Positions 35,299 to 53,435 of a stretch of DNA of 64,000 bases are shown piece by piece (the stretch's first letter is position 1; each line of letters starts with the position of its first letter). Origin of the DNA: a virus; IMG/VR virus record IMGVR_UViG_3300047319_000798, positions 13,971-77,970 of that record; one strand, written 5' to 3'. A program made the translations under genes and the position numbers. The notes beneath the pieces were generated by a model, which saw nothing but the letters and a program-made list of their open reading frames with translations, was not told where the DNA came from and did not search any database.

Positions 35299-35356
35299 GG
35301 AGCCCAATTGCTCCACCCCACAACAGTTACATAAGCGCTTCAGTTACAGAAGTCAA
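35299..35356 (-). promoter_or_regulatory. Sigma70-like promoter + AAUUGG leader hairpin (copy 1)
   Basis: TTGACT(35356-35351)-N17-TATGTA; GGAGC-AATTGG-GCTCC at 35299-35314. Confidence 0.8.
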
Positions 35357-35362
35357 GCCCAG

Positions 35363-35527
35363 TTAGAGATTATTTTTGCGGGCGTATTCCTTGGCCGCTT
35401 TAACGTCTGGGAATTGGCGGTCTATCCCTTCAATTTCTGCCCAGCTGCCGATTGCGGCTGACCGATATTCGATGATCGCCCGCTTGGCGGGGGTAAAGGC
35501 TACGACTTCGCAAACGCCGTAATTCAT
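35363..35527 (-). CDS. 54-aa early protein
   Basis: Manual translation MNYGVCEVVAFTPAKRAIIEYRSAAIGSWAEIEGIDRQFPDVKAAKEYARKNNL*; directly downstream of promoter copy 2. Confidence 0.55.
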   Translation of the reverse strand: MNYGVCEVVAFTPAKRAIIEYRSAAIGSWAEIEGIDRQFPDVKAAKEYARKNNL

Positions 35528-35539
35528 ATTGGTTGGTTT

Positions 35540-35608
35540 CCCGTCTAGAGCGGCCCAATTGCGGCTCTAGACGGGGATTCATATAGTGGGTCTGGATACA
35601 GAAGTCAA
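35540..35608 (-). promoter_or_regulatory. Sigma70-like promoter + AAUUGG leader hairpin (copy 2)
   Basis: TTGACT(35608-35603)-N17-TATATG; long stem CCCGTCTAGAGCCGC-AATTGG-GCCGCTCTAGACGGG. Confidence 0.8.
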
Positions 35609-35614
35609 GACCCA

Positions 35615-35872
35615 TCAATCGTTGAAGATGGTGAGCATTTCGTGCTTGTGCATGAAATACCACATCTGGATATCGCCCTCCAGATCGCGCTGGGTCACAG
35701 TGTGGCGGAACGGGGCCAGCTGGCCGACTAGCCGCCGAACCCAGACCCCATTGGCCGCGCCATTACCCCAATACAGCGGGTAATAGCCGTTGAAGCCGCA
35801 GGTGGAGGCCTCCTCACAGAGGCCCCCCATATGGCGCTCATCCAGCGCCCTATCCTGGTTGATGGGGATCAT
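35615..35872 (-). CDS. Hypothetical protein
   Basis: 85 aa, ATGA-coupled to the upstream gene. Confidence 0.5.
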   Translation of the reverse strand: MIPINQDRALDERHMGGLCEEASTCGFNGYYPLYWGNGAANGVWVRRLVGQLAPFRHTVTQRDLEGDIQMWYFMHKHEMLTIFND

Positions 35873-36333
35873 GACCGGTCCTCAAACAGGTTGAAGAGCC
35901 GCCCGCTGAATCCCTTCTGGCTGAATTCATCGGAATCAAGCACTAGGTCCGCAACCACGCCCTGGTTATCTCGCTTGATTTCATAACACCGCATCTTGCC
36001 GTCGCCATGGCGGTTGAAGGCGTTGCAGATCACAACCTCCCGCCGCTTGTCGGAGAGGCGCGGCTGGATGTAGGGTTCACCCTTTTGTTGCGTGGACAAC
36101 CAGGCTTCAGAGATGAAGCTATAGCTGACCGCCCGCTCTTTTTTGAGCAGCGCGCGGATGGCCGTTATGGCGTACTCTTTCTCCGCATCGCCAGACCACG
36201 GCGTTCCCACAAACGTGGTTTTGTCCTTGCCCTGGATCACGAACGTGGGCATAATCTCAGCGCCCGCGTTACCGATCAGCTCGGCGCGGGCCAAACCAAT
36301 GGCCATGTCGAGCAGTTCATCAACAGACAACAT
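35869..36333 (-). CDS. Conserved phage hypothetical protein
   Basis: 154 aa; YSFISEAW..RREVV; coupled overlaps. Confidence 0.6.
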   Translation of the reverse strand: MLSVDELLDMAIGLARAELIGNAGAEIMPTFVIQGKDKTTFVGTPWSGDAEKEYAITAIRALLKKERAVSYSFISEAWLSTQQKGEPYIQPRLSDKRREVVICNAFNRHGDGKMRCYEIKRDNQGVVADLVLDSDEFSQKGFSGRLFNLFEDRS

Positions 36334-36563
36334 TAGAGTATCCTCGCTGCTGCTGTCTTCACGGCCTTCCAGCCGTGGGCCTTGATCAGCGCGTCCACTT
36401 CCGTGTCCGCCGCCGGATAGCCGTTGGTCCTCATCCGGCCCGCGTCAAGGACCAGTTCAGCCAACCCCGCCTTCGAGGTTACGCCTATCTCCGCCGCGTC
36501 ACCCGCGACGTAATCCGCAGTGGCGCAGATCGCGCGCTGCGTCTCCAGTGTGAATTTTACCAT
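36333..36563 (-). CDS. Hypothetical protein
   Basis: 76 aa; AGGA RBS; TAATG coupling. Confidence 0.55.
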   Translation of the reverse strand: MVKFTLETQRAICATADYVAGDAAEIGVTSKAGLAELVLDAGRMRTNGYPAADTEVDALIKAHGWKAVKTAAARIL

Positions 36564-36686
36564 TTCAGTTTCCTAACCAGGTCATGATGAGGGCAAGAAC
36601 AGGGATAGCGATGATGATCATCGCGATGAAGCGCAGGGCAGGGACCGAGAGGACCACGCCAAGCGCGATGATTGCGACGAGCCAGA

Positions 36687-36992
36687 TCATTCGTCCACAC
36701 TCAACATGTAAGCCTTGGCGACCTTGTATTCATCCAGGCAGGATATGCCAGGGGTTTGACCCTGGTCGAGCAATGTGAAGTTGTGCGAACCCCGATCCAT
36801 GAGGGCCTGCATAGCAGGGCCAAACTTCATCGCCAACTGCTGGCGTTGATAGGGGGTGGTGCGGGCGTCCATCGCGTGTTGGTAGGCACTGGACAACATC
36901 GTCTTTTCAAGTGTGCAGAGAGTAACGCTGGCGGGCTCAGCTAGCGCCGGGGATGCAGCCAAGAGGACTGCAGTGAAAAGAAGGGCTTTCAT
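36687..36992 (-). CDS. Secreted hypothetical protein
   Basis: Start MKALLFTAVLLAASPALA (signal peptide) after AAGGA RBS. Confidence 0.55.
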   Translation of the reverse strand: MKALLFTAVLLAASPALAEPASVTLCTLEKTMLSSAYQHAMDARTTPYQRQQLAMKFGPAMQALMDRGSHNFTLLDQGQTPGISCLDEYKVAKAYMLSVDE

Positions 36993-37053
36993 TGGAGTGG
37001 TTCCTTGAGAGAGTGGGGGAACCGCCCACCGGTGAGGGTGGGCGGTCTGGGCC

Positions 37054-37842
37054 TTAGCCGATGGTGACGCGCGTGGAGCGCTTTGCGTCGGCGGCCAGCC
37101 AGTCACGGACCTTCCAGTTGAGGCCGTTCGGACCGCCATCGGGGCGACCGGCGAACTCAGGCTGGGTGCGCAGCCACGCCTTGGCGTCCGCCAGGAACTC
37201 CGCAACGGTCATGCCGTCGCGGTAAAGGTGCCAGCGCGGCTCGCGGTCCACGTGCCCTGCCTTCTCGGCGATGTTGGAGATCACCATGTCGTCCGTGAAC
37301 GACCGCTGACCCACCACATAGGTGGACCCGTCCTTCTTGGAGGCCACGCAGGTGACCAGCGCGCCTAAAGCCTTTGGCCCCTTAACCTCGACAATCTCCG
37401 CGTCCTCGGTCTTGGCCTTGGCCTTCTTGCCCTTGGGCGCAACGACCGTGGCTGGCTTCGTGGGCTTGTCCGCGATTACGTCCGACTTGACGGCGTTGAG
37501 GTCGACTTCGCCTTCCTCGGTAACAACCGTGATCTTGGTCACTTCCGGTTGCGCCGCCCCGTTAGCCTTGATCGCCTCTTGCGCCCGGTCGCCCATTTCG
37601 GTGAACCGGCGAAGAGCCGTGAGCTTGTCCGCGAACTTCTTGACTGGGGACGGAATAGTGCGGTCCTGATCGGTCTGGTCCTGGAGGAACTTGACGATGT
37701 CGTTAAACATCACCACCATTTCCGCCGGGGTGTAGTTGCCGATGCACCCGCGATAGGTGTGGTGCTCCTCGTCGTTGGCCGATACGATGTGCGTGATATC
37801 CTTAGCCTTAAGGACCAGCTTGTTGTTATGGAACTCATACAT
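37054..37842 (-). CDS. Early hypothetical protein
   Basis: 262 aa, first gene after promoter copy 3; strong codon bias. Confidence 0.65.
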   Translation of the reverse strand: MYEFHNNKLVLKAKDITHIVSANDEEHHTYRGCIGNYTPAEMVVMFNDIVKFLQDQTDQDRTIPSPVKKFADKLTALRRFTEMGDRAQEAIKANGAAQPEVTKITVVTEEGEVDLNAVKSDVIADKPTKPATVVAPKGKKAKAKTEDAEIVEVKGPKALGALVTCVASKKDGSTYVVGQRSFTDDMVISNIAEKAGHVDREPRWHLYRDGMTVAEFLADAKAWLRTQPEFAGRPDGGPNGLNWKVRDWLAADAKRSTRVTIG

Positions 37843-37866
37843 TGGGGTAGGTTCTTTCGATTCAAG

Positions 37867-37946
37867 AGCGGCCCGATTGCCGCTGGTGAAACGCTACTTA
37901 GGCTGTTACAGAGACAAAGTCAAGGGGGGTTTCAATAATTATTTTT
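37867..37946 (-). promoter_or_regulatory. Sigma70-like promoter + AAUCGG leader hairpin (copy 3)
   Basis: UP-like AAAAATAATTATTGAAA; TTGACT(37923-37918)-N17-TAAGTA; AGCGGC-AATCGG-GCCGCT. Confidence 0.8.
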
Positions 37947-40149
37947 CACCCAGCTTCTCCTTGGCCTCTCCCCAGGAAGCCCCAAATTCAACATCGACCT
38001 TCATCGGGATCACCAGTGGGATGGCATCGATCATCAGCTTGGCGCACTTGCGCGCTGATTCCGGGTTGTCGAAGGAGAAGCCCAGTTCATCGTGCATCTG
38101 GATCATGGGCAGGTAGCCAGCGCGCCCGATATCCCGCATAGCCCGCTTCATCTGGCGGGCGGCGCTACCCTGGATCAGGTGGTTGAATGCCTTGTAGGTA
38201 AACGAATGGCGCACTGGCTTCTGCCAGGGGTGATGGGGATCATCAATCCGCGCCTGGGCCTCCTCCCGGCTAGCTGCTGGCTTGAACGCATCCTCAAGAT
38301 TGCCATACAGGCGCACGCCCTCTGCCTGGAATGCGCGCTTGTATTCATCCTTGTCCTTCTTGTACCAGAATGAGCCTTCAAACCCCGGGTAGTGGGACCG
38401 CGCGCCGTCGATCAGCCGAATAGAGCCGCGCTCAGACGCCATCCAGATGATGATATTGGCTATCCCGGCGACAAAGGGCAGCCGCTCATCATAGGTGTTC
38501 ATAGTGGCCTTGGCTTCCTCGTAATCCATCCCGGTCATTGCGGAGAACTGGCCGATACCCGCGCCGAATGCCTTGGCGAAGTTCACGTCCTTAGCGCGGC
38601 GGCGCTGGAGGCGGGTAATCTCCGCCACCCAACTGTGAAAGTCCACGTCCGGGTTGCGCCGGTATTCATCCCCGGTGGTGATGGCGGTCTTAACCAGCTC
38701 ACGCAGTGAGACGTGCCGCCGCCCGGGCGGGATATGGGCGATGATTTCGGTGCGCAGCTTATCCAGCGCCGCGTCGGACAGAGTAGCCATGGTCTCCGCC
38801 ACGTGGACGATGAGGCGAAATTCCTGCTGGCTATAATCCACCGCATACCATCGCGTACCCTCTTCCGGCAGGAAGATCGAACGGATACGCGGGGCCAGCT
38901 CATCGTCGCGGGACGGCATCTGCTGGAGCGGCGGGTGATCATAAGAGAACCGGTGGGACCGTGTACCGCCATCCTCATTGCGGAACTGGTTGATGGAGGC
39001 GTGGACCCGGCCATTGTATTCGGTGTTGAAGATATATTCGCCCACGAATTTGTCGCCGGCAGCGTCCAGTGTTCTAATGCGCTGGATCAGGCGCGGCAGC
39101 TCATGGCGATGGTTCTTCATCCATGGGCCTTCGAACTGGGGCTGGGCCTGACCGCGCGTCTCCCCTCCCGCCGTCCAGCCGTATTTGATCCCTACGCCGT
39201 CAAAGACCTTGGCCAGTGCCCAGGGTGAGCGGATGACCTTAATGTCCAGATGCATACCGGCGGAGCGGGCGGCAGCGTTGATTAATTCATCCCGCTGCGT
39301 GTTTAGATCGTGCTGGAGCCGCTCGGCAGCATCCAGATCGACCCGAATGCCCCGGCGACGCATCCGCTGGGTCATCGGCATTAGCTCCATCTCCGTGGTG
39401 TAGGCGTCCCAGGAGCCTTCCGCCTCAACGAGGGGTCTAAGTATGTCGTAGAGTTCGAGTGTGGCTCCTGCGTCACGCTCCGCATACGGACCCACGTACT
39501 TCCCGGGCAGCCGCCAGAGGTTCTCCCCGGTTGACCCCTTCAAGCCCAGAACCTTGCAGGCTTCCACCAGCATTGATTCGTCCTTGCCCGGAATGCCCCG
39601 CCATTTACACAGGTCATCGAGCTTGTAGCTGGGAAGGCTTTCGATCAGGAACGCGGCCAGCGCGCCGGTGTCGTTAATCCGTGCCGGTGGGGGTATCTCC
39701 CATTGGGCGAATATCCAGCCCAGATCGTAGCCGATGTTGTGGCCGACAAACTCTGTGTGGTCCTGGCGGAATAGGGCGCGCAACCACGTGCCTACGGTTT
39801 CATAGGGCCAGTTCGCGGTCTCCCTCAGATGCCACAATGGTATGTAGATCGAACCGCCGTGCCAGGCCACCGACACCCCTAGCACATAGTTGGTGGTGGA
39901 GGTTCCCATGAACCAGCCGGGGCCGCGCTTCTTGGTCTTGTCCAACAGACCATCGTCGCGCGTCTCGGTGTCTATCGCCACCACCTTAGCCTGGCTAAGG
40001 TCCGGCAGGTCGCTCGGCTCTAGCCAGTTTGATTCAGGCATAAATAGGTCTGACTGCTCGAAGCTGCGCTTGAGCTTCTTGTACTTCATCCTGATTCGTT
40101 CGGATTCAGGCGGAAGGCGGTAGAACATCGTCCTCGTCCTCGTCACCAT
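37939..40149 (-). CDS. Family A DNA polymerase with 3'-5' exonuclease
   Basis: AIDTET (Exo I), GHNIGYD, YAERDA; motif A DYSQQEFR, motif B RRRAKDVNF, NHLIQGSAA, motif C MHDEL. Confidence 0.95.
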   Translation of the reverse strand: MVTRTRTMFYRLPPESERIRMKYKKLKRSFEQSDLFMPESNWLEPSDLPDLSQAKVVAIDTETRDDGLLDKTKKRGPGWFMGTSTTNYVLGVSVAWHGGSIYIPLWHLRETANWPYETVGTWLRALFRQDHTEFVGHNIGYDLGWIFAQWEIPPPARINDTGALAAFLIESLPSYKLDDLCKWRGIPGKDESMLVEACKVLGLKGSTGENLWRLPGKYVGPYAERDAGATLELYDILRPLVEAEGSWDAYTTEMELMPMTQRMRRRGIRVDLDAAERLQHDLNTQRDELINAAARSAGMHLDIKVIRSPWALAKVFDGVGIKYGWTAGGETRGQAQPQFEGPWMKNHRHELPRLIQRIRTLDAAGDKFVGEYIFNTEYNGRVHASINQFRNEDGGTRSHRFSYDHPPLQQMPSRDDELAPRIRSIFLPEEGTRWYAVDYSQQEFRLIVHVAETMATLSDAALDKLRTEIIAHIPPGRRHVSLRELVKTAITTGDEYRRNPDVDFHSWVAEITRLQRRRAKDVNFAKAFGAGIGQFSAMTGMDYEEAKATMNTYDERLPFVAGIANIIIWMASERGSIRLIDGARSHYPGFEGSFWYKKDKDEYKRAFQAEGVRLYGNLEDAFKPAASREEAQARIDDPHHPWQKPVRHSFTYKAFNHLIQGSAARQMKRAMRDIGRAGYLPMIQMHDELGFSFDNPESARKCAKLMIDAIPLVIPMKVDVEFGASWGEAKEKLGEK

Positions 40150-40417
40150 CCTCTTTCATCACTGCATCTTCGCCTTTTATCGCGGTCATATACCCCGTTG
40201 TCCAGCCGGCAGCATATATTATGGCGGTTTCCTGATCACCAAAATTAGCCAAACTGTAGTAAAGGCCCCTTTTGGTAGCCAAAAGCACTTCCCAATTGTA
40301 AGGCCCGGTTACGTGCGGACCGTTGTCCTGGTAAACAAATACGCGGGGCCGTGGCGCGGATAGCTCCGGATCATGTTTACATACAGCCGCCGTGTCTGCC
40401 ACCATCCATAAACTCAT
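40106..40417 (-). CDS. Hypothetical protein
   Basis: 103 aa, in operon. Confidence 0.5.
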   Translation of the reverse strand: MSLWMVADTAAVCKHDPELSAPRPRVFVYQDNGPHVTGPYNWEVLLATKRGLYYSLANFGDQETAIIYAAGWTTGYMTAIKGEDAVMKEDGDEDEDDVLPPSA

Positions 40418-40824
40418 TGTTCCATCCTCGCGTGGTGGCCCCCATCAGCTGGCGTGCCCGGGCCAACCTCGTCCTCTTCGATGATAGGTTTCATCTGCGG
40501 GCGCGGCGGAACCACTGTCACGTCATGTCCTCCGGTTATCGTCGCCCCGGTCACGTGGTGCGGGGCCTTGAGCTTAGCCTTTTCGTCAGCGATTAAAAAC
40601 TCCAGGTAATGCAGGGCTTTCTCTAGGTCAACTAGACCTTTGGCGCGGCCATCTACACTACCATGCACGCGCCAGCGCGACACGTACTTGATGATGTTCC
40701 CATCAACATAAGGGATATTGTTGACGTGGCAGTATTCCATGGGCTGAATAACGAAGCCCTTGTAATGCTGGCCACCAACCTGCCTCTTCAGCTGCTCGTC
40801 GCGGTCGCTCAAAATTCCCTCCAC
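40414..40824 (-). CDS. DUF3310 family (T7 gp1.7-like nucleotide kinase family)
   Basis: QVGGQHY..GNIIKYVSRW..DLEKALHYL motif. Confidence 0.8.
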   Translation of the reverse strand: MEGILSDRDEQLKRQVGGQHYKGFVIQPMEYCHVNNIPYVDGNIIKYVSRWRVHGSVDGRAKGLVDLEKALHYLEFLIADEKAKLKAPHHVTGATITGGHDVTVVPPRPQMKPIIEEDEVGPGTPADGGHHARMEQ

Positions 40825-41408
40825 ATGGCCAAGAGTGTCTTGGCGGTTTCATCTGGAAATTGCTGCTGCATAAAGAAATTGAGGCGGCGCAGCACATAGG
40901 CGCGGATTGCCCGCGCTTCCTCTGGGGTAAACGCGCCCAGCATAGCGTAAGCCGCGTCAAGCGTTCTCACCGCCACAGTCCAGCCGAACCGCGAACCTAG
41001 CGTGGTTTCCACCATACCCTCTTCCGCCATCTCGATCAGCTCAGCTATCTTGGCGTGCTTGGCCATCTTGCATTCCAGCGGGATATTGAACCCCCAGAAC
41101 GCGCTCTGGCTGGTCTTGGCCTTGTCCTCAACCTCCTGGAACCGACGGCGCAGCTCCGGGTTGTTGCGCTTCACCGGGTAAGGCGGATCACCCGTGATGA
41201 TCTCGCCGCTATCGTGGAACATAATGTATAGAAACGTCTCCTGGTCTGGTGGCCCGAATAGACAAGTGTAGACGCGTAGCAACTGCCAGGTATGCTCAGC
41301 CACCGTCTGCCGCCGGATAGTGGGCCACGTGTGGTAACGTTCCACTGTACCTGCGAGGCGCAGGTCCATTACAATCATACGCGCCGCGCCGTTCTGATGA
41401 TCGGTCAT
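40809..41408 (-). CDS. HD-domain (YfbR/DatZ-like) deoxynucleotide phosphohydrolase
   Basis: RY..QTVAEH..HDSGEIITGDPPYPVK motif. Confidence 0.8.
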   Translation of the reverse strand: MTDHQNGAARMIVMDLRLAGTVERYHTWPTIRRQTVAEHTWQLLRVYTCLFGPPDQETFLYIMFHDSGEIITGDPPYPVKRNNPELRRRFQEVEDKAKTSQSAFWGFNIPLECKMAKHAKIAELIEMAEEGMVETTLGSRFGWTVAVRTLDAAYAMLGAFTPEEARAIRAYVLRRLNFFMQQQFPDETAKTLLAMWREF

Positions 41409-42514
41409 ACGGCGGTCTTAATTGTATTAGAGTGCGCGGTCAAGTCTTTTTTCGCGTGACGATGTAACCATTCTATACCGGCTTGTTTCCAATCTGGGGC
41501 GTTTACAAAGGTCATAAGGTGGTGGGCACTGGGCTGATTCTTGTGTTTGTAGAAATAATAGGCGCTGGCCATGTAGTATACATCTTCAAGGAATGGGTTG
41601 TTGACGCTGCTGAATGGTATATCATTCCCCGGGCCAATGGTATGAACCTTGTCAAGGGCATTCCATAACCGTTTGAGGTCTTGATCAAACCTGCCGGCAT
41701 CACCCATAAGCGGGGTCACCGGCCCATAATCCTCTAGCCCCGTGGCTAGGGCGAGGTAAACCTGGTCAACGGTACACTTACTGGACAGTTTAGCGCCTTT
41801 GTAAAGGCGTTCCCATACGTCCACGTACATATGGAAATCATTGGTGAACTGCGTGTACTGGCCGACACCTACGCCCACCTTGCTGGCGACGTACTCCTGA
41901 AGGAAGGAGAGATGGACGGCGTTGGCCCCGTATGCGCCCCACAGAATGTCGTTCGACCGGTTGCTCACGGTCATGTCCAGACAGCCGTAACGGATGCGGA
42001 ACATCACCTGTAGGTTACAGGGCTTGGCCAGGGTGGTGGTTAGGTCTTCTGGGTCCCACATAGTGAGCACGGCGCGGCGGGTGGTGGGGTCCGCCTTGAT
42101 TAGCTTGATTACCTCATCGAGCTGGTCGAAGCCCCAGTGGTGGCGCCAGCGATAGCCGTAGCCATCGGTGATCACCCCTTTATAGCCGAACCGGGTGCCA
42201 AAGTCCTTGATGTAGAAGTCCAGAGGCGCAGCGTCCTCCCGCCCCGCCAGCATCCACATAGCCTCGACCAGGTGGAAGAATGGATTGGCGTTCCGCACAG
42301 GACTCAGCAACACCCTCTGGGCGGGTGAGCGATAAATGGTGGCCACCGGCCCCTCGGGATAGGCGATAACCGGGCCGTTTCGGCTATCCTGCACTTCTCC
42401 GTGGCGGAGGAGCAGCATAATGCCACGGGGCAAAGCCTCGCGAACATTCTCCACAGTGAATCTAAACATGCCTTCCCTCGCCAAATCTCCCAGCTCAATC
42501 GCCATACGACACAT
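41405..42514 (-). CDS. Thymidylate synthase-family dUMP hydroxymethylase
   Basis: YGYRWR, TRRAVLTMWDP, catalytic PCN, RSND..WGAYGAN (Asn implies a dUMP substrate), FHMY; hypermodification gene context. Confidence 0.8.
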   Translation of the reverse strand: MCRMAIELGDLAREGMFRFTVENVREALPRGIMLLLRHGEVQDSRNGPVIAYPEGPVATIYRSPAQRVLLSPVRNANPFFHLVEAMWMLAGREDAAPLDFYIKDFGTRFGYKGVITDGYGYRWRHHWGFDQLDEVIKLIKADPTTRRAVLTMWDPEDLTTTLAKPCNLQVMFRIRYGCLDMTVSNRSNDILWGAYGANAVHLSFLQEYVASKVGVGVGQYTQFTNDFHMYVDVWERLYKGAKLSSKCTVDQVYLALATGLEDYGPVTPLMGDAGRFDQDLKRLWNALDKVHTIGPGNDIPFSSVNNPFLEDVYYMASAYYFYKHKNQPSAHHLMTFVNAPDWKQAGIEWLHRHAKKDLTAHSNTIKTAV

Positions 42515-44801: not shown

Positions 44802-44803
44802 GG

Positions 44804-46943: not shown

Positions 46944-47476
46944 TCCAGTATAACCTCTGCGGCGTTGTCCCGATTGACAACGATCTTGCGCACCCCTAGT
47001 GCCTGTAACTTACCTACGTAATTACGGGCACGTACATTGGTGCCGTAAATGTTGGATATCGCTAGCTGGTCGCGGGTCTTGCCCGACCGGGCCAGTATCG
47101 CGCTGATACAAGTCTCTACTGGTGTATCGAGCAAAACTAATGTAACGTTCTGATAGCCTAGCGCGCGGAAAAAGTCAATTCCCCGCGTATGACTCATCAT
47201 ACGGATACCTTCAAACAACACGTTGTACCCGGCCTGGTGCGCGCAGCGCACTGTCTCCAGGTTGTAATCCCTATCCTTGATCGCGTCGCAACCTCTGGCG
47301 GTGATCGCGTGATACTTGCCCACGACCACGAGTGGACCGCCAAGGGTCATCTCGTAGCCGCGCACCTTCTTCGTGGCGTCATCCAGTATCGCCTCCACGT
47401 CCGGAGCGGCGGCCATCACCTTGTCGATGATGGTCGATTTACCGGACCCGTTGGTGCCGCACACCTGTATGATCAC
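46913..47476 (-). CDS. P-loop nucleotide kinase 2
   Basis: CGTNGSGKST; RGCD; VLFEG; paralog of 42495-43064. Confidence 0.8.
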   Translation of the reverse strand: MIIQVCGTNGSGKSTIIDKVMAAAPDVEAILDDATKKVRGYEMTLGGPLVVVGKYHAITARGCDAIKDRDYNLETVRCAHQAGYNVLFEGIRMMSHTRGIDFFRALGYQNVTLVLLDTPVETCISAILARSGKTRDQLAISNIYGTNVRARNYVGKLQALGVRKIVVNRDNAAEVILECLSKISPTP

Positions 47477-48810
47477 GCTGCCACCTCCTGACGCATATCC
47501 TTGAGATCGAAGGCCTTGCCGCTAGCTAACAGGTCTGAGCCACAGGGAGCCTTGCCTGTGGTCTCCGCGCACCGGAGGCAGCCGGAGGGTGGACAGACTT
47601 CTAGCGGGGCGAACCCGCCGCCCCTCTTAACGTATGTCGGCACACGATGGCCGTGGCATTGGTCTGCGGTTAGGAACTCCGGCCCCATTGAAGTCCACGC
47701 CCCGGTCTTGATGGTATATTCGTAGCACAGGGAGTAGGTCATACCGTGCCGCGTGGCAGCGGCCTGATATCGCGTGTGGCCTTCGCGCCGATATGTCTCG
47801 GTGACAGTCCGCTGGCTCCCGGCCTGGTTCTCAGTGAACAGGTCGATAAAGCCTTGAGCGCGGTTCGCGCCAAAAGCTTTGCTGATCCTTTCCTCCATAG
47901 AGGCGCGCCAAGGGTGATTGGCCTCGACAAACTTGACGATGACGTGGTTTGCTCCGTTGGCGGCTAACAGCCCAATTAGCTCCTCGATATCCTCATGGGT
48001 GGTGATCCCGGGCACAACCGGGTTACACTGGATGGAAACATAGATGTCGCGCATGCGCGCCTCGCGTATCTCGCTAAAGTGCTGCGCTAGCGTGATCGCC
48101 CCGGGCGATAACTTTGCCCAGTCATCCTCATGCGGCGTGTTGATCGATTTCTGCATGTAGGAATGGGGGTTCTGGCTCATAAGATCGTAGGCCCAGCCGG
48201 GATAGCTCAGGCGGGAAAGGAAGAAGATGGGGAGGCCCGCGTTAACGAAAGCCTCCGCGCCGCGCTGGGTATTATGGTAATAATCCTCCAGCGACAGGAA
48301 GGGGTCTGTAAAGCTGGAGAAATACCCGGCCTGGGCGTGCTTCATGGTGCCCAGTTGCTTAGCCACCATATCGCCATATCCAATCGGCACAGTGGCCAGT
48401 CCGGACCCACGATAGCCGCGATGGCCGGAATTGATGTAACAGAACCGACACCCAACAGCGCAATAGCCGCCATAAGGCTGAGTAAGGACAGCGTTCGTTT
48501 CACAGGGGCGCTCCCGCTTGCCCTTGATCGCGCCGTCTCCCTTATTGGAGTACCAGCCGCGAAGGTCTTGGCCCTTGTCGAGCCGAATGTGGGGGATTGG
48601 ATCCAGATAGATGGTTTGCTCCACCATCTTATCGGAGCCGCGCATCATCGATATCTTGCCGTCGCGCGCCCGAATAGAGCGGCCTGTGACCGGGTCATCA
48701 ATGTGGTTGATGGGACCCAGGATGTCACGCATATCGGGGTCCACGCGCATGAAGTAGCGATAAGCCTCTTCCGCCGCTTCGTCCTGAAACATGCCATCCT
48801 GGGTTTCCAT
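47473..48810 (-). CDS. Radical SAM enzyme (thymidine hypermodification, M6 gp53-like)
   Basis: CAVGCRFC (CX3CX2C), SSFTDPF, extra C-terminal Cys cluster; adjacent to kinase and AADT. Confidence 0.8.
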   Translation of the reverse strand: METQDGMFQDEAAEEAYRYFMRVDPDMRDILGPINHIDDPVTGRSIRARDGKISMMRGSDKMVEQTIYLDPIPHIRLDKGQDLRGWYSNKGDGAIKGKRERPCETNAVLTQPYGGYCAVGCRFCYINSGHRGYRGSGLATVPIGYGDMVAKQLGTMKHAQAGYFSSFTDPFLSLEDYYHNTQRGAEAFVNAGLPIFFLSRLSYPGWAYDLMSQNPHSYMQKSINTPHEDDWAKLSPGAITLAQHFSEIREARMRDIYVSIQCNPVVPGITTHEDIEELIGLLAANGANHVIVKFVEANHPWRASMEERISKAFGANRAQGFIDLFTENQAGSQRTVTETYRREGHTRYQAAATRHGMTYSLCYEYTIKTGAWTSMGPEFLTADQCHGHRVPTYVKRGGGFAPLEVCPPSGCLRCAETTGKAPCGSDLLASGKAFDLKDMRQEVAA

Positions 48811-48824
48811 GTGCGTTCCTCTGG

Positions 48825-49112
48825 TTACGGCTTCACGAGGGTGTCGATCATGTCTTGCGGGAACCCCTCGTTCTTGTAATATTCGCGAACCTCATCCTTT
48901 GTCCAAAGGTCATTGACCCATGGCAGGTTCATGTCCTGCATCATGTTATTGAACGCGCGAGCGTAAGGCAAGCCGACAGTGTTGCCCAGCCCGCGCCACA
49001 TGGTATCGCTAGCGCGCCAGCCCACCCGGGCCTTCTCTTCCGGGGTCTTGGCGTTCGCCGCCACGCAGAGGATATCGAACAACGCTTCCGGTGTCACGTA
49101 ATTATCAGCCAT
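48825..49112 (-). CDS. Hypothetical protein, first gene of modification operon
   Basis: 95 aa; AAGGG RBS; downstream of promoter copy 7. Confidence 0.55.
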   Translation of the reverse strand: MADNYVTPEALFDILCVAANAKTPEEKARVGWRASDTMWRGLGNTVGLPYARAFNNMMQDMNLPWVNDLWTKDEVREYYKNEGFPQDMIDTLVKP

Positions 49113-49135
49113 TGTGTAACTATTCCCTTACTACT

Positions 49136-49192
49136 GGTGAACCAATTATCACCTAAGATCGTCAGCATATCTGCGGGTTTCATTTAAGTCAA
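49136..49192 (-). promoter_or_regulatory. Sigma70-like promoter + variant AAUUGG hairpin (copy 7) driving modification operon
   Basis: TTGACT(49192-49187)-N17-TATGCT; GGTGA-TAATTGGT-TCACC at 49136-49153. Confidence 0.7.
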
Positions 49193-49214
49193 GCGATATT
49201 TTTATGTAACCCCC

Positions 49215-49243
49215 TTGACCTTGCTGGATGCGCCCGCTATGTT
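49215..49243 (+). promoter_or_regulatory. Divergent sigma70-like promoter
   Basis: TTGACC-N17-TATGTT upstream of 49270. Confidence 0.65.
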
Positions 49244-49269
49244 ATATTCCTTGACAAAGGAGCAATACT

Positions 49270-49947
49270 ATGACTGTACCAATCATAACTGTGAATGGAG
49301 AAGTTCCAGACCGCCATGCTGCGCGTATTGTAGTGCAGATGACGCGATGGCTCGACAATGAATCGGCTAAGATGGGTGAGCGGGTCCAGGCGCACCGCCG
49401 TATGTTTGAGTGTGGGTCACCCGTGGCCCAGGGGCGGTTCGCGCGGCGGATGAAGGATTCCTTTGGGCACATGGTGCTCGACCAGTGGCTAAAGACGGGG
49501 AAGCGCGGGCGGTATCGTCTGGACACCCACATCTGGATACCCGCCCCGATATCGCTAGGGCGACATTGTGTTGGCGGTATCCTGCTCACTATCGAAAGCG
49601 AGGGTGGTTGTCGGCGGGAGCTAGTCGATGGAACCTGGCACCGCCGCCAGAACCGGGACCACCGTGAGACCCCGACGTTCATGGTCTCAGCCCACGCCCT
49701 GCAGCGCATCGCCCAGCGCACCGGGGTTAAGACCCCAATGGACTTGCTGCGCATCATGCGGGCTATGGGTAAGGCTGTACTGGACGCCGAGCTCATGCTG
49801 GTGGGCGGCAAGATGTCGGACCTTCGTGATAGCCGCGACCGGCTGCTAGCCGGGACGTGGAAGCTGGCCTTCGATGGCGGTGTCGCCGTCTGCAAGCGGG
49901 ACTTTGACGAGGATGTGCCGATAGTGGTTACAGTGTTGCCCCTGTAG
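49270..49947 (+). CDS. Hypothetical protein, lone + strand gene
   Basis: AAGGAG RBS and own promoter; SAHALQRIAQR motif. Confidence 0.65.
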   Translation: MTVPIITVNGEVPDRHAARIVVQMTRWLDNESAKMGERVQAHRRMFECGSPVAQGRFARRMKDSFGHMVLDQWLKTGKRGRYRLDTHIWIPAPISLGRHCVGGILLTIESEGGCRRELVDGTWHRRQNRDHRETPTFMVSAHALQRIAQRTGVKTPMDLLRIMRAMGKAVLDAELMLVGGKMSDLRDSRDRLLAGTWKLAFDGGVAVCKRDFDEDVPIVVTVLPL

Positions 49948-49990
49948 GGCTATCCAGGTGGGGCGCATCGCGGCAGTCCTCGCCCACTAG

Positions 49991-50018
49991 AAAAGGCCCG
50001 GGTGTGACCCCGGGCCTT
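49991..50018 (-). terminator. Rho-independent terminator
   Basis: AAGGCCCGGG-GTCACA-CCCGGGCCTTTT on the minus strand. Confidence 0.7.
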
Positions 50019-50400
50019 GGTATCAGAGTAAGCCTGTCCAGACGTAGTAGACCAGGCCCCAGCCGATGGCGGATAGCGCCGTCGCGACCAGCATCATGGC
50101 AATAGCCTCCCGCTTGGGCGCGGGCGGGTGGATTTCATCGTCGCTGAATAGCATCACGGCGTGTAGGAATGAGTGGTGCGGATAGAGCGGTCGCGCCGCG
50201 ACAACGTCTGGGTGTTGTCGGCCCGGGTGCCCGGTACGCCCAGATCAAGCAGCGCGCCCTTGAGCTCGGTCCTCACCCAACGGCCCTTGATGTTCTCGAA
50301 GGCCTGTTGAACCTTGTCGTGGGTGATGAGCATGTAGTGCTTGGTCTGGGAGCGGCGCTCTTCAACAATCATAGAGAGTGTACGCATGGTGGTTCTCCAA

Positions 50401-50463
50401 TGGTGGCCCGGGATGGGCCCACCCCACAACCGGCCCCGTTGGGACCGGCTGGAGGGCGGGTCA
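50401..50463 (-). repeat. Structured intergenic repeat, copy A
   Basis: TGACCCGCCCTCCAGCCGGTCCCAACGGGGCCGGTTGTGGGGTGGG...GGCCACCA; homologous to 51986-52045. Confidence 0.75.
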
Positions 50464-51468
50464 GCCGATGCTGTGTTTGGCCTTCTGGTTGACCTGAACG
50501 TCCAGGCCAATCTCGTCGCCCATCCGGCGACCGCGATGGTATGCGTGGCCGTCGAACTTCTCGGCCTCACGCTGGCGGGCGCGCTCCTGGCGCTCCCAAT
50601 ACCGCCTCCACTTAGCCTCATCCTTGCGCTTCTGCGCTTCGGTCTGGGGCTTGTGCTTCTTCTCCGCGTCCTCCTCCGACAGGCCATAAGCCATGTCCCA
50701 GGCCACGTCGTATGACTTGCCCTTGGCCATCAGGTCTTTGATCTTCTGGTCGCGCGCGGCGCTGCGGGCGTTAGCCTCCGCCCGCTGGCGCTTGGTGGTG
50801 CCGGGTTCGTAGTTGCAGCGGAAGTCGTTGTTGGCGTCCAGCTCGTCCTGGATGAAGTCGGAGAGGATGACCGCCAGTGCATTTGAAGTGCCCTGGCTGG
50901 CATGCCGCGCCTTTTCCGCCTCCGCCCGGGCCTTGGAGGCTTTGATCTCCTCGTCGCGCCGCGCCTGAAGCCGCTCGCAGAGGCGGTCGGCCATACCAGT
51001 GCGCATCGAGTTGGCTTCCTTGGACTGAAGCAAACGCGGGTTGACCAGTTCAACGCGCACCAGCCGGTCGATAGCGCCGGTGAGGTATTCGTACATCATG
51101 GTGGCCGTGGCTACGTTGGCCTTGCGCCCGATGAGCGAATAGCCGGTGAACACCGTCTTGTCGCCTTTCCAAGCGGAACGCTTTGAGAGATGGCAAAAAT
51201 GGAGGGACGCGATACCGGTCATGAGCGTCTGCATCCACTTGTACTGGGCGCGCTCTTCATGGATGGCCTTTTCGCGGGTGTTGTCGGTCGTGCCGCCCGC
51301 TGCCTCGATGGTGGCCATCGACAGGTTGTAGTCCTCGATTAGCTTCTGCGCCAATTCAGCGGCATTGGCCATCTCGGCCTCGTTGCCGCGACCGTCGTTG
51401 GCGAAAGCCATAAGCTTCTTGACTTTGGAAATGACGGCCTCAAGGCCGTTGTTGGTCTGGGTGGTCAT
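50461..51468 (-). CDS. DUF2786-domain protein
   Basis: KVKKLMAFA..NEAEMANAAELAQKLIEDYNL N-terminal motif. Confidence 0.75.
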   Translation of the reverse strand: MTTQTNNGLEAVISKVKKLMAFANDGRGNEAEMANAAELAQKLIEDYNLSMATIEAAGGTTDNTREKAIHEERAQYKWMQTLMTGIASLHFCHLSKRSAWKGDKTVFTGYSLIGRKANVATATMMYEYLTGAIDRLVRVELVNPRLLQSKEANSMRTGMADRLCERLQARRDEEIKASKARAEAEKARHASQGTSNALAVILSDFIQDELDANNDFRCNYEPGTTKRQRAEANARSAARDQKIKDLMAKGKSYDVAWDMAYGLSEEDAEKKHKPQTEAQKRKDEAKWRRYWERQERARQREAEKFDGHAYHRGRRMGDEIGLDVQVNQKAKHSIG

Positions 51469-51495
51469 AGTGAGAGGGTTCCTAGATGTGTCTGG

Positions 51496-51550
51496 GGCTG
51501 CCCGATTGCAGCCTCAAGAGATACATAAGCTACAGTGTATCAGAAGTCAA
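51496..51550 (-). promoter_or_regulatory. Sigma70-like promoter + AAUCGG leader hairpin (copy 4)
   Basis: TTGACT(51550-51545)-N17-TATGTA; GGCTGC-AATCGG-GCAGCC. Confidence 0.8.
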
Positions 51551-51565
51551 GTGGGTTGATACAAT

Positions 51566-51967
51566 TTATTTTGACTCCGGGAAGACCGCCAGAGCGGCCT
51601 CAACGGCGGCCAGCTGCTCAGGGGTGAGCTCCCAGGAGGATTGCCGGCGCGATAGCCGGTCCCTAAGATCGCTGAACTTGTTGGCGGCGTCCTTGCGCGC
51701 CCGGGCCTCGTCGCGCTGCTTGATCACCAGCGCATCGTCGGCCATGTAGAGGGTGGGGGCGTTGTAATCCTTCTGGCTGGCGTACCACTGGCCGTCGCGG
51801 CAGCCCGCGCTCCAGCCCTTCTGGTCATAGTCACCATCGAGAAAGAACTTGCCGTTCTTCCAGACGGTCTTGATGGTGGCGGTGGTGTAGCTGGCCTCGC
51901 CGCCAAAGCGGCCATGGCGGACCTTGATAACCTTTGCGCCTACGACAAAGGGGCTAGTGGTGGACAT
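51566..51967 (-). CDS. Early hypothetical protein
   Basis: 133 aa; AAGGA RBS. Confidence 0.6.
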   Translation of the reverse strand: MSTTSPFVVGAKVIKVRHGRFGGEASYTTATIKTVWKNGKFFLDGDYDQKGWSAGCRDGQWYASQKDYNAPTLYMADDALVIKQRDEARARKDAANKFSDLRDRLSRRQSSWELTPEQLAAVEAALAVFPESK

Positions 51968-51985
51968 TTACGTGGTTCCTTGAAT

Positions 51986-52045
51986 TGGTGGCCGGAATGG
52001 CGCACCTCACAGCCGGACCCGGGGGACCGGCTGGAAGGCGGGTCA
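51986..52045 (-). repeat. Structured intergenic repeat, copy B
   Basis: TGACCCGCCTTCCAGCCGGTCCCCCGGGTCCGGCTGTGAGGTGCG...GGCCACCA. Confidence 0.75.
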
Positions 52046-52243
52046 ATTGACGATGATGTATCCAAGGTGGGGGATAACGAACGGCTGGTCAATGCCGGAA
52101 AGGGCGTAACCAAAGATGGCGGTCCAGCGGCCCGCGTCGTTGCGCACGATAATCGGGCGATGGTTGACCAGGCCCTTTTTCGTGAGGTCTTTGATCAGGT
52201 TCTCGCGGGTGGCGTAAGATTTGGCGGTGTTGACGTCGACCAT
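52043..52243 (-). CDS. Early hypothetical protein
   Basis: 66 aa; AAGGA RBS. Confidence 0.6.
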   Translation of the reverse strand: MVDVNTAKSYATRENLIKDLTKKGLVNHRPIIVRNDAGRWTAIFGYALSGIDQPFVIPHLGYIIVN

Positions 52244-52256
52244 GTTGGCGGTTCCT

Positions 52257-52538
52257 TTAGAGGGTGATGAGGGTGTTGTAGGGTGAAAGCGCGCGGCCCC
52301 GCTCGTTGACCGTGGTATAAGACCGGGCGACGCGTCCGTTGAACTGGTAAACCTGCTTGACTGTGAATCCCGCCTCTTTGACGCTGCGGAGAAAGTCGCG
52401 GGGCAACCGCCAGCCCTTTTCGCGGAGGCGGTAGGCTAGATCGGTCTCGGTCATGGCCTGGAACTTTTCGCCGGTATCGATGTTGATAAACATCTCGTTG
52501 CGGCCAAAGCAGTCCAGGATGGCGTCTGCGAAAGTCAT
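52257..52538 (-). CDS. Early hypothetical protein
   Basis: 93 aa, first gene after promoter copy 5. Confidence 0.6.
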   Translation of the reverse strand: MTFADAILDCFGRNEMFINIDTGEKFQAMTETDLAYRLREKGWRLPRDFLRSVKEAGFTVKQVYQFNGRVARSYTTVNERGRALSPYNTLITL

Positions 52539-52550
52539 TAGAGTGTATCC

Positions 52551-52637
52551 GGGTGTCCAGCGGCCCGATTGCCGTTGGACACCCCCTACATAAGGCCCAT
52601 TGATACAGAAGTCAAGTGGGTTTCAATAATTATTTTT
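52551..52637 (-). promoter_or_regulatory. Sigma70-like promoter + AAUCGG leader hairpin (copy 5)
   Basis: UP-like AAAAATAATTATTGAAA; TTGACT(52615-52610)-N17-TATGTA; GGGTGTCCAACGGC-AATCGG-GCCGCTGGACACCC. Confidence 0.8.
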
Positions 52638-52822
52638 TCAGCCACTGAATCGTGGGCAGAGTGACCGCTAGGCGGCGCTGGCGGTCTGTCTCGCCGGATA
52701 ACTCGCCGCGCATCACCCGGGCGTTATCCTCCTGGCGCTTGGTCACTAGCCGGGGCGGTGGATCGATGAGATTGCAGTTCCCCATTGAATCCCCGCCATG
52801 CCGGGGGTGGCGAACGTGAGCT

Positions 52823-53059
52823 TTACGTGGCGGTAGATAGCGCATCGACTAGCACCCAGCCTTTCTTAGTCTGAATGATTTTGCGCCGCGCCTCCAGCCG
52901 CCTAAGCGCGCCTTTTGGGGTTATGGAGGCGTAGCAGCCGGTGCCGATCAAATGGTCTTTTATTTCGGCAGTGGATACCGGGCGGCGGTGCTCAAGCATA
53001 TACTTAAGCACCCGTTCCGTGGAGGACATAGTGTCCAGAGGCAGGGTCATTGGTTTCAT
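52823..53059 (-). CDS. Small winged-helix-like protein
   Basis: VLKYMLEHRRPVSTAEIKDHL..ALRRLEARRKII..GWVL pattern. Confidence 0.45.
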   Translation of the reverse strand: MKPMTLPLDTMSSTERVLKYMLEHRRPVSTAEIKDHLIGTGCYASITPKGALRRLEARRKIIQTKKGWVLVDALSTAT

Positions 53060-53062
53060 CCT

Positions 53063-53088
53063 AAAGAAAAGGGGGCACTAGGCCCCCC
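53063..53088 (-). terminator. Rho-independent terminator
   Basis: GGGGGC-CTAGT-GCCCCC-TTTTCTTT on the minus strand. Confidence 0.65.
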
Positions 53089-53091
53089 GGA

Positions 53092-53352
53092 TTATTTGAC
53101 GATGGCGAGGGTGACTGGCTTAATGAATCGCTCCGTTTCCCAGCAATCCGGGTAAGCCTCTTCGAGCAATTGAATCGCTTCGGTTATAAACCGGTTGCGA
53201 TAGGGGTGGCCCTCTATCCTTAGATATTGAGCCAGTTGGTCATAATTCATTTTGCCGTTGGTAAGTTCCAGCACCCAGACGGCGCTAGATAGATGCTCCA
53301 GAAGAGCCTCATCGCTCATCTCGTCGCCGTGGTTATTTTCCTTGATTAGCAT
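53092..53352 (-). CDS. Early hypothetical protein
   Basis: 86 aa, first gene after promoter copy 6. Confidence 0.55.
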   Translation of the reverse strand: MLIKENNHGDEMSDEALLEHLSSAVWVLELTNGKMNYDQLAQYLRIEGHPYRNRFITEAIQLLEEAYPDCWETERFIKPVTLAIVK

Positions 53353-53373
53353 TGGGGTTTAAGGTCTCCTTGC

Positions 53374-53435
53374 CCAACCGGCCCGATTGCCGTTGGTCAA
53401 CCTCTTATCTTAAGGGCACGTGAATCTAAAGTCAA
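53374..53435 (-). promoter_or_regulatory. Sigma70-like promoter + AAUCGG leader hairpin (copy 6)
   Basis: TTGACT(53435-53430)-N17-TAAGAT; CCAACGGC-AATCGG-GCCGGTTGG. Confidence 0.8.

What the first reader, a model, noticed from the sequence alone, without database searches (positions are those of the whole stretch)
35299..53435. Seven promoters each followed by a covarying hairpin with an invariant AAUYGG loop: candidate new cis-regulatory RNA system
Seen: seven minus-strand TTGACT-N17-TA(T/A)xxx promoters (-35 ends at 35356, 35608, 37923, 49192, 51550, 52615, 53435). Each is followed at about +1 by a stem-loop whose stem sequence varies but keeps pairing: GGAGC/GCTCC, AGAGCCGC/GCCGCTCT, AGCGGC/GCCGCT, GGCTGC/GCAGCC, TCCAACGGC/GCCGCTGGA, CCAACGGC/GCCGGTTGG, GGTGA/TCACC. 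The loop is always AAT(C/T)GG, closed by C-G in six of the seven. The three clear plus-strand promoters lack it. Compensatory stems with a fixed loop indicate structure-specific recognition. Inference: a boxB/nut-like antitermination site, a 5'-end stabiliser or shut-off tag, or a DNA cruciform read by a phage factor, which would define an early regulon that includes the DNA-modification operon.
Basis: partly seen in the sequence, partly recalled or inferred. Interest (0 to 1): 0.8.

Follow-up and report, generated by a model that had tools for sequence, protein, structure and literature searches.

The report
Phage leader hairpins with invariant loop
An uncultured 78-kb soil phage puts the same small RNA hairpin (variable stem, fixed AAUYGG loop) at the start of nearly all its host-transcribed messages that have a leader; this probably protects and tags them for joint control, and it matches no catalogued RNA family.

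Summary
All seven minus-strand TTGACT-N17-TAxxxx promoters exist. Six are followed by a solid stem-loop capped GC-AAUYGG-GC; the seventh (49192) keeps the loop on a weak 5-bp stem. I found four more elements: two on the plus strand outside the window (genome 1040 and 2968), one internal copy with no promoter (window 46963-46982, 26 nt before the amino-acid:DNA transferase gene), and a promoter-linked terminator with an AUCGG loop (34596-34622).

In ten copies the loop is invariant and all 8 stem pairs show compensatory changes. Hairpins with this loop are about 15-fold more frequent than with permuted loops. The motif hits no Rfam family. It is absent from the nearest phage relatives and is at most sporadic in 151 alphaproteobacterial genomes.

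The loop starts 14-19 nt after the -10 and lies 21-33 nt before the start codon, so the hairpin should cap the 5' end of the mRNA.

Best reading (about 0.5): a sense-strand leader RNA hairpin that protects the 5' end and carries a loop tag read by an unknown factor. boxB-like antitermination and a DNA cruciform are disfavoured. No transcript data and no DNA of close relatives could be reached, so the function remains inferred.

The parts
53374..53435 (-). Cassette P53435: -35 TTGACT 53430-53435, -10 TAAGAT 53407-53412, hairpin 53374-53396 (8 bp with one bulged G, loop AAUCGG 53383-53388); ATG 30 nt after the loop (orf86)
52551..52615 (-). Cassette P52615: TTGACT-N17-TATGTA, hairpin 52551-52584 (14 positions, one A.C mismatch, loop AAUCGG); ATG 26 nt after the loop (orf93)
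   Evidence: (-28.5 kcal/mol, z -4.4)
51496..51550 (-). Cassette P51550: TTGACT-N17-TATGTA, hairpin 51496-51513 (6 bp, loop AAUCGG); ATG 33 nt after the loop (DUF2786/DUF7168 protein, 335 aa)
49136..49192 (-). Cassette P49192, weak member: TTGACT-N17-TATGCT, 5-bp stem GGUGA/UCACC, U.U closing, loop AAUUGG; ATG 29 nt after the loop. Heads the long operon with the thymidine-hypermodification genes and DNA polymerase.
   Evidence: (hairpin not in the minimum-energy fold)
46963..46982 (-). Internal hairpin without a recognisable sigma-70-type promoter: perfect 7-bp stem, loop AAUCGG. It lies inside the 3' end of the 5-hmdU kinase ORF, 26 nt before the ATG of the amino-acid:DNA transferase gene (46943).
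   Evidence: (14.8 bits)
37861..37923 (-). Cassette P37923: TTGACT-N17-TAAGTA, hairpin 37861-37890 (6 bp, 2x2 internal loop, 4 bp; loop AAUCGG); ATG 30 nt after the loop (orf262)
35540..35608 (-). Cassette P35608: TTGACT-N17-TATATG, hairpin 35540-35575 (15 positions, one C.C mismatch, loop AAUUGG); ATG 27 nt after the loop (orf54)
   Evidence: (-27.4 kcal/mol, z -5.7)
35295..35356 (-). Cassette P35356: TTGACT-N17-TATGTA, hairpin 35295-35319 (9 bp with a bulged U, loop AAUUGG); ATG 25 nt after the loop (DUF6011 protein)
34596..34652 (-). Variant: TTGACT-N17-TAGTTA promoter followed after 1 nt by an 11-bp hairpin capped GGC-AUCGG-GCC plus a U-run. It is the intrinsic terminator of the upstream unit and overlaps the start of the next one.
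53070..53088 (-). Intrinsic terminator directly after orf86. The ribosome-binding site of orf78 follows its U-run, so orf78 and orf71 need read-through.
49995..50016 (-). Strong terminator hairpin ending the P51550 unit. Its loop is unrelated (GUCACA).

Best explanation
The element is a sense-strand RNA hairpin built into a composite expression cassette: AT-rich UP-like stretch, TTGACT, 17 nt, TAxxxx, hairpin, Shine-Dalgarno, ATG. The host RNA polymerase would start at or within a few bases of the foot of the stem (inferred). The hairpin would therefore form the extreme 5' end of each leadered phage mRNA. There it would shield the end from 5'-end-dependent decay (RNase E/RppH or RNase J type; established principle, not tested here).

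The invariant C(AAUYGG)G top would serve as a common tag read by one trans-acting factor, phage or host, not yet identified. That factor could co-regulate stability or translation of all tagged messages, in the manner of an operator regulon such as T4 RegA targets or IRE/IRP.

Shown: the motif, its enrichment, its covariation, its fixed geometry and its absence from Rfam. Inferred: the transcription start, RNA rather than DNA as the active form, the protective role, and the existence of a reader.
For: 1. Compensatory changes occur in all 8 stem pairs while 5 of 6 loop positions are invariant and the sixth is always a pyrimidine, in 10 copies.
2. The element is strand-asymmetric. Reverse strands of the same sites score 9-13 bits against 30-34.5.
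3. The loop begins 14-19 nt after the -10 in all nine promoter-linked copies and lies 21-33 nt before the ATG in all ten. With a start about 7 nt after the -10, at most 4 nt stay unpaired at the 5' end.
4. The promoter-less copy at 46963-46982 keeps a perfect stem, the loop and the 26-nt spacing to a start codon. This points to a role in the RNA independent of initiation.
5. The weak-stem member (49192) still keeps the exact loop at the right place, which points to loop reading rather than mere stability.
6. The sigma-70-type promoters without the hairpin have essentially no leader (58496, 62198) or a 20-nt one (49215).
7. The motif is about 15-fold enriched over permuted loops in this genome. 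It gives no Rfam hit even at E<=10. Model R1 finds nothing in the nearest relatives, including a complete 63.5-kb genome. It finds only 0-2 marginal hits per genome in 151 alphaproteobacterial genomes.
Against: - There is no transcript data, so start sites are predicted from promoter geometry only.
- No RNA-binding reader was identified. The small early ORFs have no informative family. The only hint is orf133, which resembles the phage ProQ C-terminal-like family: Pfam E 0.009, below cut-off; Atlas features 0.93.
- All copies come from one genome, so the covariation is among paralogous cassettes, not across species.
- The fixed distance of the loop from the promoter would also fit a DNA-level signal.
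- The long stems (35608, 52615) begin 2-4 nt after the -10, so a few outer pairs may be missing from the cassette's own transcripts.
- One family member (34596-34622) is a plain terminator.
Confidence: 0.5

Rival explanations
1. Processive antitermination site. The nascent hairpin would recruit a phage factor (N-like peptide or the NusG paralogue) to the polymerase so that it reads through terminators, as with lambda boxB/N or the LoaP leader hairpin.
For: - The location is promoter-proximal.
- An intrinsic terminator sits right after the first gene of the P53435 unit, and two genes behind it need read-through.
- The phage encodes a NusG paralogue: PF02357 at 26.9 bits and PHROG 'transcription antiterminator' at 1.7e-15. 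It is the last gene of a hairpin-tagged operon (P2968).
- LoaP is a NusG paralogue that needs a small leader RNA hairpin (PMC12691694).
Against: - Hairpins head very short units (orf54 alone) and units that end in strong terminators (34596-34622, 49995-50016). A processive complex would override those terminators.
- No boxA-like sequence lies near any copy.
- The loop is neither GNRA-like nor UNCG.
- The leader that directly follows the NusG gene has its own UUCG-capped hairpin and no AAUYGG. That makes it the likelier NusG target.
- No N-like protein was found. The Arg-rich start of orf71 is uncertain, because the Atlas record begins at residue 21.
Confidence: 0.12
2. Purely structural 5' cap with no dedicated reader. 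The loop would be kept because C(AAUYGG)G is an intrinsically favourable or nuclease-resistant cap, as C(UUCG)G hairpins are in T4 intercistronic regions. The hairpin would only stabilise and insulate the leader.
For: - The geometry is that of a 5'-terminal hairpin.
- The same cap occurs on a terminator in this phage, on a terminator-like hairpin in an unrelated viral contig (L105), and on two 11-bp intergenic hairpins in alphaproteobacterial genomes (L270, L274).
- An AAUCGG loop also caps P2 of a purine riboswitch (L221). Such loops are therefore used in unrelated RNAs.
Against: - AAUYGG is not among the known extra-stable loops (my knowledge of the nearest-neighbour parameter sets).
- The other terminators of this phage use other loops.
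- The weak 49192 member keeps the loop although its stem is barely stable.
- The motif is rare elsewhere.
Confidence: 0.15
3. DNA-level signal. The 8-10 bp core at about +8 to +18 would be read in double-stranded or non-template DNA by a promoter-proximal factor (for example the phage GcrA-like protein) or as a pause signal, or the inverted repeat would extrude as a cruciform.
For: - The distance from the -10 to the loop is almost constant (14-19 nt) whatever the stem length.
- The weak-stem member keeps the core.
- The phage encodes a GcrA-like regulator (PF07750, 3.4e-14).
- In other phages of this scan a 'conserved loop' turned out to be a promoter element (earlier finding e1-134810).
Against: - A DNA site does not explain compensatory stems of 5-15 bp.
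- Stems of 5-6 bp will not extrude as cruciforms.
- The core has no hexamer with both A at position 2 and T at position 6 of a -10 element, and it is not a GANTC site (read directly from the sequence).
- The promoter-less copy at 46963-46982 keeps the element.
- No phage RNA polymerase was detected, though the PF00940 search had no positive control, and the largest ORF is 933 aa. An N4-type hairpin promoter is therefore unlikely.
Confidence: 0.08
4. PeSL-like mobile regulatory cassette. The stem-loop would mainly stop or attenuate transcripts arriving from upstream, and the conserved cassette would serve as a recombination linker for shuffling small genes.
For: - Cassettes fill the whole intergenic space and mostly precede small ORFs of unknown function.
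- One member is a true promoter-terminator composite (34596-34652).
- PeSLs of T4-type phages combine an AT-rich region, a sigma-70-like promoter, a stem-loop and a Shine-Dalgarno sequence (PMC2839356).
Against: - Nine of ten hairpins have no U-run.
- The hairpin lies downstream of the -10, whereas PeSL stem-loops lie between the -35 and -10 or over the -10.
- Recombination linkers should homogenise the stems, but here the stems differ and only the loop is fixed.
Confidence: 0.07

Closest known systems
PeSL (promoter-early stem-loop) cassettes of T4-type phages RB49/phi1 (PMC2839356; PMC4122927)
   Same: Both are repeated intergenic cassettes made of an AT-rich upstream region, a strong sigma-70-like promoter, a stem-loop and a Shine-Dalgarno sequence in front of many small early genes. 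One member here (34596-34652) is a promoter-terminator composite.
   Different: PeSL stem-loops sit between the -35 and -10 or over the -10. They are polyG/polyC terminators and have no fixed loop. Here the hairpin follows the -10, lacks a U-run in 9 of 10 copies, has an invariant hexaloop and varies freely in the stem.
Lambda-type nut sites (boxA + boxB read by N)
   Same: Both are small leader RNA hairpins whose loop, not stem sequence, is the recognised part. Both lie promoter-proximally in phage early transcripts.
   Different: boxB has a GNRA-like pentaloop and is paired with boxA, and there are two sites per genome serving long operons. Here there is a 6-nt AAUYGG loop, no boxA, at least 10 sites including one-gene units, and no N-like protein was found.
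LoaP-type NusG paralogues with a leader RNA hairpin (PMC12691694)
   Same: The phage encodes a NusG paralogue, and its transcripts carry small leader hairpins.
   Different: The LoaP hairpin is a UNCG tetraloop. In this phage the UUCG-capped hairpin is in the late leader behind the NusG gene, not in the AAUYGG cassettes.
5'-terminal stabiliser stem-loops of bacterial mRNAs (for example the ompA leader; from my knowledge)
   Same: Both are hairpins within a few nucleotides of the predicted 5' end of the message, upstream of the ribosome-binding site.
   Different: Known stabilisers have no shared loop sequence across genes. Here one loop is shared by about 10 messages.
Hairpin-loop operator regulons (IRE/IRP; PP7 and MS2 coat-protein operators; from my knowledge)
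   Same: All have a fixed hexaloop on stems of free sequence, placed in the 5' leader. The PP7 operator loop AUAUGG also ends in GG.
   Different: There is no homology and no reader protein is known here. The MS2 and PP7 operators include the start codon and a bulged A.

Membership tests
Any Rfam family | Match to a curated covariance model | tested here: not met
   There were 0 matches at gathering thresholds over the window. No match fell at any hairpin even at E<=10 over 34500-54500.
Lambda nut (boxA/boxB/N) | boxB hairpin with GNRA-like pentaloop | tested here: not met
   The loop is a 6-nt AAUYGG in all ten copies.
Lambda nut (boxA/boxB/N) | boxA element next to the hairpin | tested here: not met
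   No GCTCTTT-, CTCTTTAA- or CGCTCTTA-type sequence lies near any copy.
Lambda nut (boxA/boxB/N) | Arginine-rich N-like antiterminator encoded downstream | tested here: inconclusive
   The small early ORFs give no family hit. orf71 has an Arg/His-rich N-terminus, but the Atlas record begins at residue 21.
PeSL cassettes | AT-rich region plus sigma-70-like promoter plus stem-loop plus SD, repeated before early genes | tested here: met
   definition taken from PMC2839356.
PeSL cassettes | Stem-loop placed between the -35 and -10 or over the -10, and acting as a terminator | tested here: not met
   The hairpin starts 0-11 nt after the -10. Only 34596-34622 has a U-run directly after the stem; the hairpin after promoter P1040 is followed by GCC and then UUUUCU.
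LoaP-type antitermination | NusG paralogue present | tested here: met
   Genome 5154-5660: PF02357 at 26.9 bits (cut-off 22.2) and phrog_6386 at 1.7e-15.
LoaP-type antitermination | UNCG-tetraloop hairpin in the target leader | tested here: not met
   AAUYGG is not UNCG. The UUCG-capped hairpin lies in the late leader.
5'-terminal mRNA stabiliser hairpin | Hairpin begins within about 0-4 nt of the mapped 5' end | not testable with these tools
   No RNA run holds the phage. Promoter geometry predicts it.
Intrinsic terminator | GC-rich hairpin directly followed by a U-run | tested here: not met
   There is no U-run directly after the stem in 9 of 10 AAUYGG hairpins. The feature is met only by the AUCGG variant at 34596-34622.
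N4-type hairpin promoters | Phage-encoded giant virion RNA polymerase and a 3-nt-loop DNA hairpin upstream of the start | tested here: not met
   The largest ORF is 933 aa. No PF00940 match was found, though that search had no positive control. The loop is 6 nt.

The most novel reading that the evidence does not exclude
The AAUYGG hairpin would be the operator of a genome-wide phage 'leader tag' regulon. A single, still unidentified RNA-binding protein (phage-encoded, for example one of the small early ORFs or the ProQ-C-like orf133, or a host protein) would bind the loop on about 10 mRNAs. It would switch their stability or translation together, giving the early-to-late transition a post-transcriptional master switch. 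That would be a new RNA-protein pair.
Probability: 0.3. Interest if true: 0.75.

Novelty: new variant of a known kind. Interest (0 to 1): 0.6.

Why it matters
If the loop is read by a factor, this phage controls most of its host-transcribed messages through one small RNA tag. The tagged messages include its replication genes and its thymidine-hypermodification operon. That would add a new operator-reader pair to the few known in phages (boxB/N, RegA sites, coat-protein operators).

It would also provide a compact, portable promoter-leader part for Alphaproteobacteria-type hosts. Even if no reader exists, the cassettes are a clean natural example of 5'-hairpin leaders contrasted with leaderless messages in one genome.

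Tried and rejected
1. Close relatives. 

2. IMG/VR relatives by DNA polymerase share only 38-41% identity. They lack the motif. The complete 63.5-kb one uses extended -10 (TGCTATACT) promoters and presumably infects another host.

3. Expression. No RNA holder was listed. The four DNA runs that were laid hold the same strain at low depth, with no variation in any hairpin.

4. Pattern scans for promoter plus GCAATYGGGC gave 1 hit in IMG/VR (not a hairpin), 80 in metagenomes and 46 in GTDB genomes.
   - None of the hits is related to this phage.
   - Long stems are in excess: 8 against about 1.6 expected, and 3 against about 0.3.
   - The set is heterogeneous. It includes a purine-riboswitch P2 (L221), leaders of a solute-binding lipoprotein and of a phasin-like gene, and Saccharimonas.
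   - No control loop could be scanned, so this is not evidence for a wider family.

5. The first, looser scan was mostly chance.

6. Isolated phages gave no DNA similarity.

7. Literature searches for the loop sequence or for promoter-linked conserved-loop hairpins returned only PeSL and LoaP as relevant.

8. Readings of the core as a sigma-dependent pause or -10-like element, a consensus-pause element, a GANTC site, or a tRNA D-loop or anticodon mimic were considered by eye. They were dropped as unsupported.

9. The recurrent-loop search in relatives was too noisy to use.

Full report
**Source.** The window is bases 13971-77970 of a 77,970-bp IMG/VR virus record rated complete. It comes from soil and rhizosphere metagenomes. 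There is no similar isolated phage and no tRNA.

Genes run rightwards except for one leftward arm (window 32425-53352) that diverges at 53352-53531. That arm carries:
- small ORFs of unknown function;
- a DUF2786/DUF7168 protein;
- a thymidine-hypermodification operon: two 5-hmdU kinase-like genes, an amino-acid:DNA transferase, a radical-SAM 'photolyase-like' gene, a 2OG oxygenase, a thymidylate-synthase-like gene and an HD hydrolase;
- DNA polymerase A.

Host hints point to Alphaproteobacteria. These are a GcrA-like protein, weak protein matches to Sphingomonas, Rhizobium, Ochrobactrum and Aminobacter phages, and two PEP-CTERM proteins.

TTGACT-N16-18-TAW occurs 9 times, always on the minus strand, against 1.0 expected. 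GCAATYGGGC occurs six times in the whole genome, and every copy lies behind one of these promoters. Six sites fold into the hairpin as the minimum-energy structure. The 49192 site has only GGUGA/UCACC with a U.U closing pair and does not.

**The family is larger than reported.** A covariance model and a loop-anchored scan added:
- two plus-strand cassettes outside the window. Genome 1040: TTGACT-N17-TATGTA, closing pair flipped to G-C. Genome 2968: TTGACT-N17-TATGTT, heading the operon that ends with a NusG paralogue;
- a perfect 7-bp hairpin at window 46963-46982 with no recognisable promoter, 26 nt before the start of the amino-acid:DNA transferase gene;
- a promoter-linked 11-bp terminator at 34596-34622 capped GGC-AUCGG-GCC.

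**Statistics.** In ten copies, A-A-U-(Y)-G-G is invariant and all eight stem pairs show compensatory changes. Paired cells are 81%, against 49% in shuffles and 31-48% with slid partners. Hairpins with these two loops number 11, against 0.66 per permuted hexamer.

**Geometry.** The loop starts 14-19 nt after the -10 in all nine promoter-linked copies, whatever the stem length (5-15 positions). It lies 21-33 nt before the start codon in all ten. With a start about 7 nt after the -10 (general knowledge of sigma-70 promoters), each message would begin at or just inside the foot of the stem.

The sigma-70-type promoters that lack the hairpin are almost leaderless (58496 and 62198: ATG 6 nt after the -10) or have a 20-nt leader (49215). 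The late promoter behind the NusG gene has a long, different leader. No U-run directly follows the stem in 9 of 10 hairpins, so they are not terminators.

**Interpretation.** Variable, compensating stems with an asymmetric fixed loop argue for a single-stranded, sense-orientation structure. Reverse strands of the same sites score 9-13 bits against 30-34.5. The promoter-less copy keeps the stem, the loop and the spacing to a start codon, which argues for a role in RNA rather than in initiation. The weak 49192 member keeps the exact loop, which argues that the loop itself is read.

I therefore favour a 5'-leader hairpin that both caps the message and carries a recognition tag (confidence about 0.5).

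- *Antitermination* is less likely. Tagged units include a single 54-codon gene and units that end in strong terminators. There is no boxA. The NusG paralogue directly precedes a leader with its own UUCG-capped hairpin. That arrangement matches the LoaP precedent, a UNCG leader hairpin (PMC12691694), better than the AAUYGG cassettes do.
- *A DNA-level reading* would explain the constant promoter-to-loop distance, but not the covariation or the promoter-less copy.
- *A no-reader, purely structural cap* remains possible. The same cap occurs on a terminator here, on a terminator-like hairpin in an unrelated viral contig (L105), on two alphaproteobacterial intergenic hairpins, and as the P2 loop of a purine riboswitch.

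**Distribution and novelty.** There was no Rfam match even at E<=10. Model R1 finds nothing in the five nearest IMG/VR relatives. In 151 alphaproteobacterial genomes it finds 20 marginal single hits in 17 genomes (22-29 bits, E<=0.01 per genome, E-values rough), against 10-11 copies in this 78-kb phage.

Pattern scans of IMG/VR, metagenomes and GTDB returned mostly chance singletons unrelated to this phage. The closest described concept is the PeSL cassette of T4-type phages (PMC2839356). It shares the composite promoter, stem-loop and SD design but differs in hairpin position, in terminator nature and in having no fixed loop. I class the finding as a new variant of a known kind: phage promoter-leader hairpin cassettes and loop-operator regulons.

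**Limits.** All copies are paralogues in one genome. There is no transcript evidence. No reader protein was identified. orf133's likeness to the phage ProQ C-terminal-like family is only a lead.

Noticed in passing
outside the window: genome 5154-5795 (window -8816 to -8175), locus L210: A NusG paralogue (168 aa) is the last gene before the morphogenesis operon. A TTGACC-N17-TAACTT promoter overlaps its end. The leader behind it starts with a hairpin capped by UUCG, as in LoaP-type NusG paralogues that bind a UNCG leader hairpin.
   Followed up: partly
outside the window: genome 213-734 (L210): A GcrA-like cell-cycle regulator homologue (PF07750, 3.4e-14). It suggests an alphaproteobacterial host and possible phage control of host-type promoters.
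   Followed up: no
window 32425-34116 (-): Two adjacent phage genes encode secreted proteins that end in PEP-CTERM-like sorting signals (VPEP.../VPEA... followed by a hydrophobic stretch and basic residues).
   Followed up: no
window 58496-58533 and 62198-62235 (+): In TTGACT-N17-TAxxxT promoters the -10 ends 6 nt before the ATG. This predicts leaderless or nearly leaderless mRNAs (285-aa gene; 506-aa helicase), in contrast to the hairpin-capped leadered class.
   Followed up: partly
window 53059-53092 (-): The intrinsic terminator after the first early gene (orf86) is followed at once by the ribosome-binding site of orf78 (winged-helix-like, basic) and then orf71. These genes have no promoter of their own and depend on terminator read-through.
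   Followed up: partly
window 51566-51967 (-): orf133 resembles the 'Phage ProQ C-terminal-like' family. Pfam gives E 0.009, below cut-off. In the Atlas search, 29 of the 30 nearest clusters belong to one set, the top ones at 0.92-0.93 and carrying PF24203 on 17-27% of members. It is a possible RNA-associated protein inside a hairpin-tagged operon.
   Followed up: partly
window 49215-50016: A plus-strand gene (225 aa, unknown) is embedded in the minus-strand arm. It has its own TTGACC-N17-TATGTT promoter, back to back with P49192, and is bounded by the hairpin at 49995-50016, which reads as a terminator on the minus strand.
   Followed up: no
window 40809-48810 (-): A thymidine-hypermodification gene set: radical-SAM 'photolyase-like' gene, two 5-hmdU kinase-like genes, an amino-acid:DNA transferase, an HNH endonuclease, a 2OG-Fe(II) oxygenase, a thymidylate-synthase-like gene and an HD hydrolase. 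It is driven by the weakest hairpin cassette and has an internal hairpin before the transferase gene.
   Followed up: partly
L221:5742-5837 (Oscillospiraceae MAG): A purine riboswitch (Rfam RF00167, 38.2 bits) whose P2 stem is capped by the same AAUCGG loop. Hexaloops ending in GG can make loop-loop contacts.
   Followed up: no
L270 and L274 (alphaproteobacterial genomes G018, G085): Two apparently non-coding 11-bp hairpins are capped GGC-AAUCGG-GCC, one of them just after a stop codon. They have the same top as the phage hairpins but occur singly.
   Followed up: no
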